Shown: positions 1-4,283 of the stretch, piece after piece
Position numbering within the stretch: position 1 is the stretch's first letter
Layout: each line of letters opens with the position of its first letter
IMG/VR virus record: IMGVR_UViG_2537561979_000002
Location: 1 to 4,283 of that record
Direction: 5' to 3' (one strand)
Length of the DNA: 4,283 bases
Origin: a virus
Taxonomy: Duplodnaviria > Heunggongvirae > Uroviricota > Caudoviricetes
The notes under the pieces: generated by a model
Databases searched by the model: none
What the model was told of the DNA's origin: nothing
What the model saw: only the letters and a program-made list of their open reading frames with translations
Position numbers and translations under genes: made by a program

Positions 1-47
1 AGGATGTGACGTGGAACATTGTCACCGGATAACACGCGGAGAATGTT

Positions 48-704
48 ATGGGGAAACTGAGATACCGTAACCTCGTTCCCGCTGAAGGAATGAGTAACAT
101 GTTTGTCAATATCCGGCTGGCAACCAGCCCGCAGGCAGTGAAGCGCATTGCCGCGCATGTGGGTAAGGAGCTGCGGCGCGTGAACCAGAGCCGGATGCGC
201 GCCCAGAAAGCGCCGGACGGTTCGGTGTGGACACGCCGTAAACGCCGTATATCACGCCTTCAGGAGCGCATCAGCTTTATCTGGCAAAACCAGAACCGCA
301 CCCTGAAAAACTGGCATCACGGTTCAGGAAAATACGGCCAGACCATCACCGGCTGGGATGAAGACCGGAGCGGCATACGTACCTTTTACCGGAGTGATAT
401 CCTCCGTTTCCTTGAAATCAGGACACGCCGCATCAACCGTGACACCACAAAAACGGTGCCGATGTTTGCGAAGCTGCGCACGGCCCGTTATCTGAAAGTG
501 AAGGCGGACGCATCAGGTGTGACGGTGGGCTACAGCGGCGTGGCGGCACGCATTGCCCGCGTTCACCAGTTCGGGGAGCGCGACCGGGTGGCCGCAGGGA
601 TGTATACGGATTATCCGGCCCGTGAACTTCTTGGAATAACACCGGCAGATGAACGACTTATTCAGCGTATCATTATGGACAATATCGCGAGGGCTGTGGC
701 ATGA
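48..704 (+). CDS. S: Phage virion morphogenesis / tail completion protein (P2 gpS-like)
   Basis: ORF of 218 aa in frame 3. The C-terminal part (ARIARVHQFGERDRV...YPARELLGITPADERLIQRIIMDNI) resembles the conserved C-terminus of the phage virion morphogenesis family (P2 S / Mu G type) as I recall it. GGAG at 38-41 lies 6 nt upstream of ATG 48. Its stop overlaps the V start (ATGA at 701-704). The position immediately upstream of V matches P2 synteny. The start is uncertain: in-frame ATGs also occur at 90 and 99, and the product is longer than the roughly 150 aa I remember for this family. Confidence 0.7.
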   Translation: MGKLRYRNLVPAEGMSNMFVNIRLATSPQAVKRIAAHVGKELRRVNQSRMRAQKAPDGSVWTRRKRRISRLQERISFIWQNQNRTLKNWHHGSGKYGQTITGWDEDRSGIRTFYRSDILRFLEIRTRRINRDTTKTVPMFAKLRTARYLKVKADASGVTVGYSGVAARIARVHQFGERDRVAAGMYTDYPARELLGITPADERLIQRIIMDNIARAVA

Positions 705-1282
705 ACGCGGAATTAATGCGCCTTATCAGCAACATCATCAGAACCGGCGTGATTTTCGACGTGAACCCGCAGACCTGGGAGGTCCGGGTGCGCAGTGGCG
801 GACTGGAGACAGGCTGGCTTCGCTGGAGCACCGCGCGGGCGGGCGCGTTCAGTGTCTGGGTGCCGCCAGCCACCGGTGAACAGGTGGCGTTCGTCTGTAT
901 CGGTGGTAATCCCGAAACCGCGATAATCATCGGCAGCCTCTGGAGCGATGATATCCCGGCACCGGGCAGCACACTGAAGGAAATCATCATGACAGCACCG
1001 GACGGTGCGGTATTCCGCTACGATGCAGACGCCGGTGCACTGGAGGTTAAGGGGATTAAAACAGCCAGCATTCAGGCCGACACGCGCATCACCCTGGACA
1101 CGTCGGAGGTGGTGTGTACCCGCAAACTTATCACCGCCACCCTGGAGGTGCAGAACGGCGGCGAGATGCGCGGCAGCATATCCCACAGCGGCGGCAGCCT
1201 GACATCCAACGGTATCACCGTTCATACGCACACCCACGGTGGCGTCAGGACGGGCCCGGGCACCACGGGAGGCCCGCAATGA
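701..1282 (+). CDS. V: Baseplate assembly protein V (baseplate hub/spike, P2 gpV-like)
   Basis: ORF of 193 aa. The N-terminus (IRTGVIFDVNPQTWEVRVRSGGLETGWLRW) fits the gpV OB-fold spike family pattern. GAGGG at 689-693 lies 7 nt upstream of ATG 701. The start overlaps the S stop and the stop overlaps the W start (ATGA at 1279-1282), indicating translational coupling. Size is close to P2 gpV. Confidence 0.88.
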   Translation: MNAELMRLISNIIRTGVIFDVNPQTWEVRVRSGGLETGWLRWSTARAGAFSVWVPPATGEQVAFVCIGGNPETAIIIGSLWSDDIPAPGSTLKEIIMTAPDGAVFRYDADAGALEVKGIKTASIQADTRITLDTSEVVCTRKLITATLEVQNGGEMRGSISHSGGSLTSNGITVHTHTHGGVRTGPGTTGGPQ

Positions 1283-1629
1283 CCGCTGTTTACAGGGGGA
1301 TGAACCCGCAGGGAACCGGCACGCTGAGCGACAGCGAACACCTGAAAAACAGCGTGCGGGATATCCTGACCACACCGCCAGGCAGCCGGGTGATGCGCCG
1401 CGAATACGGCAGCCTGTTACCGGACCTCATCGACGAGCCCATGAACGACACCACGCGTTTACAGTGCATGAGCGCCACGGTGACTGCGCTGGCGCGCCAT
1501 GAACCCCGTATAGCACTGCAGAACGTCGATGTGAACTGGCGGGCTGGCGGACGCGCCGTGGTGACGTTATCCGGCATCATCACCGAAACCATGCAGAACA
1601 TCACATTCAGTATCACCCTGAGGGAGTAA
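1279..1629 (+). CDS. W: Baseplate wedge protein W (GPW/gp25 family)
   Basis: The track ORF 1114..1629 is trimmed to internal ATG 1279 (MTAVYRGMNPQ...), giving 116 aa. This start is preceded by GGGAGG at 1267-1272 with 6 nt spacing and overlaps the V stop codon. The sequence (SVRDILTTPPGSRVMRREYGSLLPDLIDEP) fits the GPW/gp25 signature, and the size matches P2 gpW. Confidence 0.88.
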   Translation: MTAVYRGMNPQGTGTLSDSEHLKNSVRDILTTPPGSRVMRREYGSLLPDLIDEPMNDTTRLQCMSATVTALARHEPRIALQNVDVNWRAGGRAVVTLSGIITETMQNITFSITLRE

Positions 1630-1632
1630 ATC

Positions 1633-2529
1633 ATGCCTTCCGTTGACCTGTCACAGTTACCGGAACCGGCCATCATCGCGCAGCCGGATTTTGAGTCCAT
1701 CCTGGCAGACATTAAAACCATGATGGTGAGCTCCTTCCCGGAAGAATACCGCGCCGCCGTCACCCGTGCCCTTACTCTGGAATCCGAGCCATTGAACATC
1801 ATTTCCCAGGCCATGGCCTTTCGTGAAATGCTGCTTCGCCAGCGCATCAATGAAGCCGCCCGCGCCTGCATGCTCAGCCACAGCCGGGGCAGTGACCTGG
1901 ACAATCTGGCCGCCAACAACAACACCCACCGCCTGGTCATTCATCCGGCCACTGATACCACGGAAGCAGTGATGGAAAGCGACACATCGCTGCGTCTGCG
2001 TGCCCAGTCAGCCTGGGACGGCCTGAGTGTGGCCGGACCGTCCGGCGCGTATGAGTATTTTGCCCGGAGCGCAAGCGGTCTTGTCCGTGATGCGCGCGCC
2101 ATCAGCCCGTCACCGGCCACAGTCACCGTCTCCATCCTGTCAGCAGACGGTGACGGCACCGCCGGTGAGGCGTTACTGAACACGGTGCGCACCGCCCTGA
2201 ATGCCGAGAACGTGCGCCCGGTTGCCGACCGCCTGACTGTGCAGAGTGCTACCATCGTGAACTGGGTAATGGAAGCGAAGCTGTATTTTTATCCAGGGCC
2301 GGAGTCTGAACCCATGCTTGCGGCCGCTGACGCCGCTTTCCGTGCATGGCTGGCAGACCAGGGCCGTATCGGTCAGGACGTGGCCCTGTCAGCCATCACT
2401 GCAGCGCTGCATGTTCACGGTGTCCAGCGCGTTGAGGTCATAAAACCCACGCAGAACATCACCATCAGTGACACTCAGGCAGCCAGATGTACCACATTCA
2501 GCATCAGCGAAGGAGGACGCAATGAGTGA
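1633..2529 (+). CDS. J: Baseplate assembly protein J (P2 gpJ-like)
   Basis: ORF of 298 aa, starting 3 nt after the W stop. AGGGAG at 1621-1626 precedes ATG 1633. Size and position are as in P2 gpJ. The stop TGA at 2527-2529 overlaps the I start (ATGAGTGA). Confidence 0.88.
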   Translation: MPSVDLSQLPEPAIIAQPDFESILADIKTMMVSSFPEEYRAAVTRALTLESEPLNIISQAMAFREMLLRQRINEAARACMLSHSRGSDLDNLAANNNTHRLVIHPATDTTEAVMESDTSLRLRAQSAWDGLSVAGPSGAYEYFARSASGLVRDARAISPSPATVTVSILSADGDGTAGEALLNTVRTALNAENVRPVADRLTVQSATIVNWVMEAKLYFYPGPESEPMLAAADAAFRAWLADQGRIGQDVALSAITAALHVHGVQRVEVIKPTQNITISDTQAARCTTFSISEGGRNE

Positions 2530-3084
2530 CAGGAAAAAACAGACAGCGCACAGCACAGTACATCACTGCTTCCACCGTCCGCAGGGCCATTCATGCGCGC
2601 CACAGAGGCGACAGGAGTACGCATCAGTACCATACCGGTGGACGCCGACACCCTGTGGTCGCCGGACCGCTGCCCTGCTCACCTCCTGCCCTACCTTGCA
2701 TGGGCATGTTCCGTTGACAGCTGGGACCGCAACTGGCCGGAAGAGACCAGGCGACAGGTGATTCGGGACGCATGGATGATACATCGCCACAAAGGGACCA
2801 TCAGTGCACTCCGCCGCATCGTTGAACCACTGGGCTACCTCATCCGTGTATCAGAATGGTGGGAGTTTGACGGCTCGCCCGGGACCTTCACCATTGAGAT
2901 TGGCACACTTGAAACCGGAGTAAGTGAAGAGCTGCATGAAGAAATGGAGCGTCTGATTGCCGATGCGCGCCCCGTCAGCCGCCACCTCGTGGGGCTTAGT
3001 ATCATCCAGGAAATACACGGTGCCATTTACGCCGCTGCCGCAGGTTACGACGGCGACATCATCACCATTTACCCGGAAGACTGA
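2522..3084 (+). CDS. I: Phage tail protein I (P2 gpI-like), reading frame interrupted near the N-terminus (frameshift; possible pseudogene or sequencing error)
   Basis: AGGAGG at 2511-2516 lies 5 nt upstream of ATG 2522 (frame 2), which overlaps the J stop. The gpI-like body, including the conserved N-proximal SLLPP motif at about 2563-2577 and the later LWSPDRCPAHLLPYLAWACSVD region, is in frame 1 and runs to the stop at 3082-3084. Frame 1 has no start codon between the J stop and ATG 2593. The frame-2 continuation from 2522 to 2761 is R/P/H-rich and not protein-like. Adding one A to the A6 run at 2534-2539 would give a continuous protein of about 187 aa (MSDRKKTDSAQHSTSLLPPSAGPF...). Confidence 0.8.
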
Positions 3085-3087
3085 ACC

Positions 3088-4283
3088 ATGAGCACGAGAA
3101 AATTCAGAACCCTTATCACCGACATCGGGCTGGCAAAGCTGGCCGCAACAACGGCGCCTGGCGGTAGACCTGTACGCCTTACGCACATGGCTGTAGGGGA
3201 CGGCAATGGAGAGCTTCGTCAGCCGCAGAAAAACCAGACATCGCTTTACAATGAGGTTTGGCGCCAGTCTGTCAACCGCGTCTTCACCGACCCGGAGAAC
3301 CCGAACCGCCTCATCGCCGAACTGGTCATTCCTCCTGAAACCGGCGGATTCTGGGTGCGTGAAATTGGTGTGTTTGATGATACAGGTACAATGATTGCAG
3401 TAGGAAATACCGCTGAAAGTTACAAGCCCACCAGAGAGGAAGGTTCAGGGCGGGCGCAGATATTCCGTGCAGTAATCACCGTCACCTCCGACGCCGTGGT
3501 GGAACTGGTCATGGACACAACAACAATTCTGCCGACCACGGACTACATTGATGAGAAAATAGCGGAACACGCACGTTCCCGTAACCACCCTGACGCGACA
3601 CTGACAGAAAAAGGATTCACCCAACTGAGCAGCGCCACAAACAGCACCTCTGAAACACTGGCCGCCACACCGAAGGCCGTCAAGGCTGCATATGACCTTG
3701 CAGCCGGTAAAGCACCCGCCAGCCACACCCACCCGTGGAATCAGATAACAGGTGTGCCATCAGCCTCGCTGACGGCAAAAGGCACCGTACAGCTGAGCAG
3801 TGCCACAAACAGTGAGTCAGAGACTGAGGCCGCCACCCCCAAAGCGGTTAAAGCCTTACACGATATGGCTGACGAGCAAGTATACAGGACAGGATGCAAC
3901 CACCGGACGCAAAGGCATCGTACAGCTAAGCAGCGCCACAAACAGCAATTCCGAAACGCTGGCGGCCACACCAAAAGCTGTTAAAGCTGCGTATGACCTT
4001 GCCAACAGCAAAGCCTCGGCAGCCCACACTCATCGCTGGGCTCAGATCACAGACGCCCCTGTTTTTTCGTCTGTTGCCCGCGTCATCATGGGTAAACAAA
4101 GCATAAAAGATATTCTTGATTACTTTGGTTTAGGAGAAGGCTCGACGCTGCCAGTTGGCGTACCCGTTCCGTGGCCTTCGTCAAGACCACCTGAGGGGTG
4201 GTTACAGTGCAACGGTGCCGCATTCACGCGTACAAAATACCCAAAACTGGCGGTGGCCTACCCTGACCTCAGGCTACCAGATT
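3088..4283 (+). CDS. H: Tail fibre protein (P2 gpH-like N-terminus), partial at the 3' end of the window and frame-interrupted near 3871-3877
   Basis: Starts at ATG 3088, 3 nt after the I stop, with GGAAG at 3075-3079. The N-terminal roughly 170 aa (FRTLITDIGLAKLAATTAPGG...ELVIPPETGGFWVREIGVFDDTGTMIAVGNTAESYKP...) closely resemble the P2 H baseplate-attachment domain as I recall it. This is followed by repeats of the motif KGxVQLSSATNSxSETxAATPKAVKA. The frame-1 ORF ends at 3984 after a non-protein-like tail, while frame 2 is open from 3797 to the window end and encodes the third repeat plus a collar-like region (EGWLQCNGAAFTRTKYPKLAVAYPDLRLPD). The gene therefore continues past 4283 in frame 2. 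Confidence 0.85.
3604..4050 (+). repeat. Three imperfect direct repeats within the tail fibre gene (cores about 3611-3702, 3778-3870, 3911-4003)
   Basis: Each core encodes KG(F/T/I)(T/V)QLSSATNSxSETxAATPKAVKAxxDxA. Copies 1 and 3 share a 19-nt identical run (agcagcgccacaaacagca) and are each followed by an HTHxWxQIT motif. Copy 2 is more diverged and lacks that extension. Confidence 0.8.

What the first reader, a model, noticed from the sequence alone, without database searches (positions are those of the whole stretch)
3860..3910. Frameshift inside the tail fibre gene between repeat 2 and repeat 3
Frame 1 carries the fibre through ...TPKAVKALHDMADE, then decays into a basic low-complexity tail (RTGCNHRTQRHRTAKQRHKQQ) and stops at 3982-3984. 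Frame 2 reads KYTGQDATTGRKGIVQLSSATNSNSETLAATPKAVKAAYDLANSK... from about 3878 and stays open to the window end. It clearly continues the same protein, matching the GKYTAQDATTARKG linker I recall from P2 H. Removing one nucleotide around 3871-3877 (for example G 3874) joins the frames as ...HDMADSKYTGQDATTGRKG.... This is not a homopolymer context. Two frameshifts in two essential tail genes within 1.4 kb suggest either a cryptic prophage accumulating inactivating mutations or an indel-prone assembly.
Basis: seen in the sequence. Interest (0 to 1): 0.55.

Follow-up and report, generated by a model that had tools for sequence, protein, structure and literature searches.

The report
Likely assembly-error frameshift in prophage fibre gene
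The tail-fibre gene of a P2-like prophage in a draft E. coli TA007 assembly carries one extra base that splits it in two; the extra base is most probably an assembly or sequencing error made where two near-identical repeats meet, so the finding is ordinary.

Summary
The frameshift is in the sequence. Frame 1 of the fibre gene (start 3088) reads to ...KALHDM, then runs out of frame to a stop at 3982-3984. Frame 2 carries the rest of the fibre to the window end.

The extra base is G3868 or C3869, not 3871-3877. The window reads ATGGCTGAC. Every relative reads ATGGTGAC (HDMVTSKY) or ATGCTGAC (HDMLTSKY).

The window is one whole 4283-bp contig of a draft scaffold of E. coli TA007, with N gaps on both sides. 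The neighbouring contigs repeat its ends at 100% identity.

Against five complete prophages that are 99.0-99.9% identical, TA007 alone has nine single-base indels in 18.6 kb, seven of them changes in the length of a base run. They break the capsid, I, H and tape-measure genes. Two overlapping TA007 contigs disagree at a G-run.

None of 27 complete E. coli genomes, three metagenome contigs or the cluster members that reach the site has the extra base.

The site is the G/C difference between two repeat copies of the fibre gene, and the window keeps both alleles. The window also lacks the 690 bp between those copies.

Best reading: a consensus artefact at a repeat junction (about 0.75). A real inactivating mutation is about 0.2. 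Low interest.

The parts
3088..3867 (+). 5' part of the tail-fibre gene (P2 gene H homologue), frame 1, residues 1-260, ending ...KALHDM
   Evidence: ORF list and translation. PF12571 covers residues 4-151 and there are PF03406 repeats. 67% identity to P2 gpH. 99.8% DNA identity to intact fibre genes of E. coli DG341-1, LH50-c and others.
3868..3869 (+). The frameshift site. The window has G and C where every relative has only G (ATGGTGAC, Val) or only C (ATGCTGAC, Leu). One of the two bases is extra.
   Evidence: Alignments. The extra base is absent from all 27 complete E. coli genomes that hold this 63-mer and from metagenome and GTDB contigs.
3870..4283 (+). Continuation of the same fibre gene in frame 2 (TSKYTGQDATTGRKG..., a third PF03406 repeat, then the start of the Collar domain). 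It runs off the window end.
   Evidence: Translation. Pfam hits on frame 2 alone. 100% identical to repeat copy B plus downstream sequence of the relatives' fibre genes.
3868..3984 (+). Spurious out-of-frame tail of the frame-1 ORF (ADEQVYRTGCNHRTQRHRTAKQRHKQQFRNAGGHTKSC, then the stop)
   Evidence: No protein in the 5.8-billion-cluster database joins the in-frame part to this tail. The only similar entry is a 38-aa wrong-frame call on a 527-bp contig.
3681..3972 (+). About 290-bp repeat unit that occurs twice (copy A and copy B, 690 bp apart) in the 2235-bp fibre genes of the closest relatives. The window enters with copy A's upstream flank and leaves with copy B's downstream flank, so it lacks the 690 bp (230 aa) between them.
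   Evidence: Metagenome contig L010 also carries both copies 690 bp apart, one with G and one with C.
3592..4003 (+). Three PF03406 'phage tail fibre repeat' units (3592-3702, 3760-3867, 3893-4003). The frameshift lies in the linker after unit 2.
   Evidence: Pfam; coordinates computed.
3885..4283 (+). Last 399 bases of the contig, repeated 100% at the start of the next contig of the scaffold, beyond a 682-N gap. From the frameshift site to the contig end is 415 nt.
2522..3084 (+). Baseplate gene I (P2 I homologue) with the second frameshift: A6 at 2534-2539 where all relatives have A7
   Evidence: PF09684 on the 163-aa remnant.
48..2529 (+). Intact upstream tail and baseplate genes: S-like virion morphogenesis (48-704), V (701-1282), W (1279-1629), J (1633-2529)
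   Evidence: ORFs. Pfam families on the called genes. Annotation of relatives.

Best explanation
The window is a contig from the draft assembly of E. coli TA007 (GCA_000190975.1, scaffold GL872128.1). It covers the tail and baseplate genes S-V-W-J-I-H of a P2-like prophage. The apparent +1 frameshift in fibre gene H is most probably not in the bacterium's DNA. It looks like a consensus error made where reads from two near-identical copies of a roughly 290-bp fibre repeat were laid on top of each other. In relatives, copy A carries G at this position and copy B usually carries C. The contig follows copy A's upstream flank into the repeat and copy B's flank out of it, and at the one distinguishing position in between it keeps both bases (GG+C, or G+GC). 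An aligner that treats a G/C difference next to a G as two length differences (one G more, one C more) and then rounds a roughly 1:1 mixture would give exactly ATGGCTGAC. A plain single-base overcall (G to GG) at a poorly covered spot is the simpler variant of the same idea. Either way, the true gene should be an uninterrupted fibre ORF. That ORF is either the 744-aa form of the closest relatives, with the 690-bp module restored, or a 514-aa form. Shown: the frameshift, its exact position, that it is private to TA007, the repeat geometry, and the other indels of this assembly. Inferred: that the cause is consensus building. I did not see any reads.
For: 1. Provenance. The exact 298-aa product occurs on one contig only, TA007 scaffold GL872128.1. 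The window equals the stretch between two N runs. Adjacent contigs overlap it by 496 and 399 bases at 100% identity.
2. Privacy. All 27 complete E. coli genomes holding the surrounding 63-mer (60 places) lack the extra base. There is no exact match in metagenome or GTDB contigs, while four in-frame copies occur in metagenome contigs. Cluster members that reach the site read HDMVTSKYTGQ in frame.
3. Indel-prone region. Against five complete prophages that are 99.0-99.9% identical, TA007 has ten private single-base indel calls (nine distinct). The relatives have none. Seven of the nine are changes in the length of a base run: A7 to A6 twice, G4 to G3, T5 to T4, G to GG twice, and GG to GGG. They break the capsid gene (twice), gene I, gene H and the tape-measure gene (four times), all of which are intact ORFs in relatives. 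In contigs c2-c4 (9.6 kb) there are seven private indels against one private substitution outside the repeat (P <= 4e-4 even if one mutation in four were an indel).
4. Direct inconsistency. Contigs c3 and c4 cover the same 259 bases and differ by one G in a G-run.
5. Position. The extra base lies exactly on the G/C difference between repeat copies A and B. The window is 100% copy B from 3681 to 4283 apart from this base, and it has copy A's flank upstream. The next contig starts 16 nt after the site, and the contig ends 415 nt after it.
Against: I saw no reads, so a real mutation cannot be excluded. I could not verify the sequencing platform with the tools; that this 2011 Broad assembly was made from 454 data is only my recollection. 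Fibre genes of relatives vary naturally in repeat number (626, 670 and 744 aa), so the short architecture could be genuine, and then only the single base would be in question. At the other copy-discriminating positions (3928, 3958) the contig shows pure copy B alleles rather than a mixture. The contig does not break at the repeat borders, as a classic collapsed repeat often would. One indel per 2 kb is high for a consensus error rate unless coverage here was poor or a second related prophage interfered. Over the whole 18.6 kb, the 36 private substitutions, clustered in patches, make the indel excess less extreme.
Confidence: 0.75

Rival explanations
1. The frameshift is a real mutation. The TA007 prophage is defective, and a genuine one-base insertion, possibly created during a repeat-mediated deletion of the 690-bp module, truncates the fibre after 260 native residues. 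The phage could then no longer make a receptor-binding fibre.
For: The base is in the deposited sequence. The same prophage carries other frame-breaking indels in capsid, I and T, as a decaying prophage would. The fibre repeats do recombine in nature, giving lengths of 626, 670 and 744 aa.
Against: The change is private to one draft assembly among all sequences examined. The damage consists only of single-base indels, mostly base-run length changes, with no nonsense mutations, larger deletions or IS elements. There are almost no accompanying private substitutions in the 9.6 kb around the site. Two contigs of the same assembly disagree at a G-run. Homologous recombination between the copies would leave G or C, not both.
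Confidence: 0.2
2. The shift is used biologically. Either a programmed +1 ribosomal frameshift or transcriptional slippage produces full-length fibre from a split gene, or the gene is a deliberately split fibre with a separately started C-terminal part.
For: Nothing beyond both halves being open and homologous to fibre.
Against: No homologue has the shift; all have a single ORF. The site CAC GAT ATG GCT GAC GAG has no shift-prone motif, no stop or rare codon in the A site, no +1 re-pairing option and no long base run (read directly). The frame-2 segment starts in the middle of a repeat linker.
Confidence: 0.02

Closest known systems
Tail fibre protein gpH of Peduovirus P2 (NC_070905.1, YP_010663825.1)
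   Same: It has the same N-terminal PF12571 domain followed by PF03406 repeats. Identity is 67% over residues 1-311, running across the frameshift site once one base is removed. The gene order V-W-J-I-H, followed by a tail fibre assembly gene, is the same. The P2 linker GKYTAQDATTARKG corresponds to TSKYTGQDATTGRKG here.
   Different: The C-terminal receptor-binding part is unrelated; here it is a PF07484 Collar domain. The repeat number differs. The window copy is interrupted by one extra base.
Intact fibre genes of the same prophage type in complete E. coli genomes (for example WP_103723425.1 in DG341-1 and WP_254539300.1 in LH50-c, both 744 aa)
   Same: 99.7-99.9% DNA identity over window 1-3972, and 100% over 3681-4283 with repeat copy B. 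The neighbouring genes are identical.
   Different: They have no extra base at the site, A7 instead of A6 in gene I, and 690 bp (230 aa, including a non-repeat insert) between repeat copies A and B that the window lacks.
Single-base indel and collapsed-repeat consensus errors in draft assemblies from high-throughput reads
   Same: The indels are private, mostly base-run length changes, break otherwise conserved genes, lie partly near contig ends, and sit in a gapped scaffold with redundant contig ends. Base-run length variation and poor contig ends in such drafts are a recognised source of false frameshifts (PMC4746626).
   Different: This site is not a long base run. It is the union of two alleles of a repeated segment, which points to mixing of repeat copies rather than a simple miscount. 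The platform and the reads were not available to me.

Membership tests
P2 gpH-type tail fibre (Peduoviridae) | N-terminal 'Phage tail-collar fibre protein' domain (PF12571) | tested here: met
   Residues 4-151, E = 1e-50.
P2 gpH-type tail fibre (Peduoviridae) | Tandem PF03406 fibre repeats after the N-terminal domain, with sequence similarity to P2 gpH | tested here: met
   Three repeats in the corrected protein, one of them in frame 2. 67% identity to P2 gpH over 311 residues.
P2 gpH-type tail fibre (Peduoviridae) | Position after baseplate genes V, W, J and I and before a tail fibre assembly gene | tested here: met
   Gene calls and Pfam families in L004. Annotation of relatives.
P2 gpH-type tail fibre (Peduoviridae) | One uninterrupted reading frame | tested here: not met
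   The window has one extra base at 3868/3869. All relatives are uninterrupted.
Pseudogene of a decaying cryptic prophage | The lesion is present in the organism's DNA (read support or independent resequencing) | not testable with these tools
   No reads are available.
Pseudogene of a decaying cryptic prophage | The lesion is shared by related isolates, or accompanied by the normal spectrum of neutral changes (substitutions much more common than indels, nonsense mutations, deletions) | tested here: not met
   0 of 27 complete genomes and 0 metagenome contigs share it. There are seven private indels against one private substitution in 9.6 kb, and no nonsense mutations or deletions.
Programmed ribosomal frameshift or transcriptional slippage site | The frameshift is conserved among homologues | tested here: not met
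   All homologues are in frame.
Programmed ribosomal frameshift or transcriptional slippage site | A shift-prone motif at the site | tested here: not met
   GAT ATG GCT GAC GAG has no slippery run and no stop or hungry-codon context (by inspection).
Sequencing or assembly artefact | Private to one assembly, together with other private single-base indels that break conserved genes | tested here: met
   There are nine distinct private indels in TA007 and none in five complete relatives. They are also absent from L001, L003 and L010-L012 where those sequences cover the sites.
Sequencing or assembly artefact | Internal inconsistency within the assembly | tested here: met
   Overlapping contigs c3 and c4 differ by one G in a run. 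N gaps were placed between contigs that overlap by 259-496 bases.
Sequencing or assembly artefact | The site lies in repeated sequence, at a difference between the copies | tested here: met
   G in copy A and C in copy B of relatives; the window has both; the 690 bp between the copies is missing.
Sequencing or assembly artefact | Reads disagree with the consensus; the platform is indel-prone | not testable with these tools
454 is only my recollection for this 2011 assembly.

The most novel reading that the evidence does not exclude
The extra base is real and is the footprint of an imprecise, repeat-mediated deletion inside the fibre gene. On this reading, a template switch or recombination between repeat copies A and B removed the 230-aa module and retained both the G and the C allele at the junction. 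That would be a caught-in-the-act example of how fibre module shuffling can inactivate a prophage.
Probability: 0.08. Interest if true: 0.25.

Novelty: not a real feature. Interest (0 to 1): 0.07.

Why it matters
It matters little for biology. If the frameshift were real, it would only mean that one P2-like prophage in one E. coli isolate has a dead fibre gene, which is commonplace. The practical value is as a caution. In this draft contig, the frameshifts in the fibre and gene I, and those in the capsid and tape-measure genes next door, should not be counted as pseudogenes or as evidence of prophage decay without read-level confirmation. Fibre genes with internal repeats are prone to collapsed or chimeric consensus.

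Tried and rejected
1. I searched for other proteins that carry the out-of-frame tail joined to the in-frame part. None was found. The one similar entry, P0001 (38 aa), is a wrong-frame call on a 527-bp contig that begins after the site, so it says nothing about the frameshift.

2. I made exact-pattern scans for the frameshift allele in metagenome and GTDB contigs. Both found nothing. I replaced it with a pattern from the window just downstream of the site, which found four in-frame copies in metagenome contigs and none in GTDB representatives.

3. A literature search for TA007 gave nothing on the sequencing platform or the prophage.

4. I compared scaffold gap sizes with the relatives' layout as a test of whether the 690-bp module is really present in TA007. 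The 682-N gap fits the long form better (expected about +291) than the short form (expected -399). However, the other gaps are off by -155 to +576, so I treat this as too noisy to use.

5. I considered a second, related prophage in TA007 as the source of mixed consensus. I could not test this because only this scaffold was accessible. At the other private indel sites the divergent prophage types do not differ, so mixing cannot explain them.

6. I considered a programmed frameshift and a separate downstream gene. Both are rejected because no homologue has the shift and the site has no shift-prone motif.

7. The first Pfam call failed because one test peptide was too short. It was repeated.

Full report
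**What is in the window.** The window carries, on the + strand, the late tail and baseplate genes of a P2-like prophage:
- an S-like virion morphogenesis gene (48-704);
- V (701-1282), W (1279-1629) and J (1633-2529);
- I (2522-3084, interrupted);
- the 5' 1.2 kb of the tail fibre gene H, from 3088.

Frame 1 of H reads through an N-terminal PF12571 domain and two PF03406 repeats to ...ATPKAVKALHDM. It then continues as ADEQVYRTGCNHRTQRHRTAKQRHKQQFRNAGGHTKSC and stops at 3982-3984. The +1 frame reads ...TSKYTGQDATTGRKGIVQLSSATNSNSETLAATPKAVKAAYDLANSK... and stays open to the window end. On its own, that frame hits PF03406 (E = 9e-21) and the Collar domain PF07484 (E = 3e-10). With one base removed, the protein aligns with P2 gpH over residues 1-311 in a single piece across the site, at 67% identity. 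P2 reads ...DLANGKYTAQDATTARKG... at that point.

**Exact position.** Close relatives exist in complete E. coli genomes, with 99.7-99.9% identity over window 1-3972. Against them the window has exactly two indels. One is A6 instead of A7 at 2534-2539 in gene I. The other is one extra base at 3868/3869 in gene H. The window reads GATATGGCTGACGAG; relatives read GATATGGTGACGAG (Met-Val-Thr-Ser) or GATATGCTGACGAG (Met-Leu-Thr-Ser). In every relative gene H is one ORF of 626-744 aa and gene I is intact.

**Where the window comes from.** The exact 298-aa truncated product is on record for a single contig. It is EGB64275.1, 'phage tail fibre [Escherichia coli TA007]', on scaffold GL872128.1 of GCA_000190975.1. 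The window is exactly the stretch between two runs of N in that scaffold, 80 N before and 682 N after. The contig before it repeats the window's first 496 bases, and the contig after it repeats its last 399 bases (3885-4283), both at 100% identity. The next pair of contigs overlaps by 259 bases. The scaffold is thus a chain of redundant, overlapping contigs separated by artificial gaps. One result is a false duplication of the S gene in the gene calls.

**How this assembly compares with complete genomes.** I aligned the five TA007 contigs of this prophage (18.6 kb) with five complete relatives: DG341-1, LH50-c, NRZ14408, TUM1886 and TUM9803.
- TA007 has ten private single-base indel calls, nine of them distinct. 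The five relatives have none.
- Seven of the nine are changes in the length of a base run: A7 to A6 twice, G4 to G3, T5 to T4, G to GG twice, and GG to GGG.
- The indels split the major capsid gene (two indels), gene I, gene H and the tape-measure gene (four indels within 600 bp). All of these are uninterrupted ORFs in the relatives.
- The private alleles are also absent from two further E. coli prophages and three metagenome contigs, where those sequences cover the sites.
- One of the G-run differences exists only in contig c3. Contig c4, which covers the same bases, lacks it. This is a direct internal contradiction in the assembly.
- In contigs c2-c4 (9.6 kb) there are seven private indels but only one private substitution outside the fibre repeat. 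Even with a generous one-in-four share of indels among mutations, this has P of about 4e-4.
- Over the whole 18.6 kb the contrast is weaker. There are 36 private substitutions, but they cluster in three patches that look like recombination mosaics.

**The frameshift allele elsewhere.**
- None of the 27 complete E. coli genomes that hold the surrounding 63-mer (60 places) has the extra base. All align at 98.3-98.4% identity (one gap in 60-63 bases); none is an exact match.
- Exact-pattern scans of the metagenome and GTDB contig collections found no copy.
- A pattern just downstream of the site found four copies in metagenome contigs, two with G and two with C. One contig carries both, 690 bp apart.
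- Members of the protein's 90% cluster that reach the site read HDMVTSKYTGQ in frame.
- A search with the out-of-frame tail found no protein that joins it to the in-frame part.

**Why this site.** In the closest relatives the fibre gene is 2235 bp. It contains a roughly 290-bp unit twice, as copy A and copy B, 690 bp apart. Upstream of 3681 the window has copy A's flank. From 3681 to 4283 it is 100% identical to copy B and its downstream flank, apart from the extra base. The window therefore equals the relatives' gene minus the 690 bp (230 aa) between the copies. Merged with the next contig and corrected, it gives a 514-aa fibre. Copy A carries G at the site. Copy B carries C in four relatives and G in one. 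The window carries G followed by C. So the extra base falls exactly on the one position, inside the interval where the contig switches from A to B, at which the two copies usually differ, and it is the union of the two alleles. The next contig starts 16 nt after the site, and the window ends 415 nt after it, about one long read.

**Best explanation.** These facts suggest that reads from both copies were piled together. The G/C difference, next to another G, was handled as two length differences (one more G, one more C), and both were kept in the consensus. Homologous recombination in vivo would leave G or C, not both. A simple overcall of G as GG is the plainer alternative, and it equally makes the frameshift an artefact. 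I put an assembly or sequencing artefact at about 0.75.

**Rivals.**
- A real one-base insertion in a defective TA007 prophage, at about 0.2. This cannot be excluded without reads. The short fibre architecture is biologically plausible, since relatives vary (626, 670 and 744 aa). One indel per 2 kb is a high consensus error rate unless coverage was poor. I could not verify the platform; that this 2011 draft is 454-based is only my recollection.
- A programmed frameshift or a deliberately split gene, at about 0.02. No homologue has the shift, and GAT ATG GCT GAC GAG has no shift-prone motif.

**Comparison with known things.** The gene is a P2 gpH-type fibre. It has PF12571 plus PF03406 repeats, V-W-J-I-H synteny and 67% identity to P2 gpH. 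Its C-terminal Collar-type part is different. The phenomenon itself belongs with the well-known false frameshifts of draft assemblies at base runs, contig ends and collapsed repeats; PMC4746626 describes the same concern and manual removal of such sites. Nothing here is new biology.

**Verdict.** The frameshift exists in the deposited sequence at 3868/3869. It very probably does not exist in the organism. Interest is low.

Noticed in passing
window 2534-2539: Gene I (baseplate, P2 I homologue) is frameshifted by A6 where all ten compared sequences have A7. This is private to TA007 and is a classic base-run length change.
   Followed up: yes
window 1-496 and 3885-4283; L004 6834-6913 and 11197-11878: The window is a whole contig. 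Its ends are repeated 100% in the neighbouring contigs of the scaffold, which are nevertheless separated by 80 and 682 N. This creates a false second S-like gene call (L004 6385-6833 and 6961-7617) and hides the fact that the fibre gene can be completed by merging contigs.
   Followed up: yes
L004 1893 and 2319: The major capsid gene of the TA007 prophage is split into 166-aa and 191-aa calls by two private indels: an inserted A, and A7 to A6. Relatives have one 379-aa gene.
   Followed up: partly
L004 14291-14864; L006 15505-18852: The tape-measure gene of TA007 is broken by four private indels within 600 bp, near a contig junction. In the complete relatives, RefSeq annotates the tape-measure gene as 'incomplete; missing C-terminus', although an uninterrupted 1115-codon ORF runs down to the gpU gene. 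That looks like an annotation quirk rather than a pseudogene.
   Followed up: partly
L005 16610-18844, L001 4001-5881, L003 4001-6013: Fibre genes of otherwise near-identical prophages differ in length (626, 670 and 744 aa). The differences come from the copy number of a 300-bp (100-aa) repeat unit and from the presence or absence of a 230-aa stretch between repeat copies A and B that carries a non-repeat insert (...SDALSMAFVKPTTSLGETDLNTLG...GPWSEWVEVTN...).
   Followed up: partly
window 3868; L006 13371 region: The codon at the site is polymorphic Val/Leu (G/C) among repeat copies. In LH50-c's closest prophage both copies carry G, while in four other genomes copy A has G and copy B has C.
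   Followed up: yes
P0001 (NCBI 'phage tail protein, partial', 38 aa, on a 527-bp contig): A deposited partial protein, DEQVYRTGCNHRTQRHRTAEQRHKQQFRNAGGHTEGSK, is a wrong-frame translation of this fibre repeat on a tiny contig. It is an annotation artefact unrelated to the TA007 frameshift.
   Followed up: partly
L009, at the equivalent of L004 4559-4584: Prophage of strain TUM9803 has a private 26-bp deletion just downstream of the tail protein X gene, and the annotated genes there change.
   Followed up: no
L004 2875-3004, 3829-4004 and 17938-18190: The TA007-private substitutions are clustered in three short patches, which suggests mosaic recombination with another P2-like phage rather than point mutation.
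   Followed up: no
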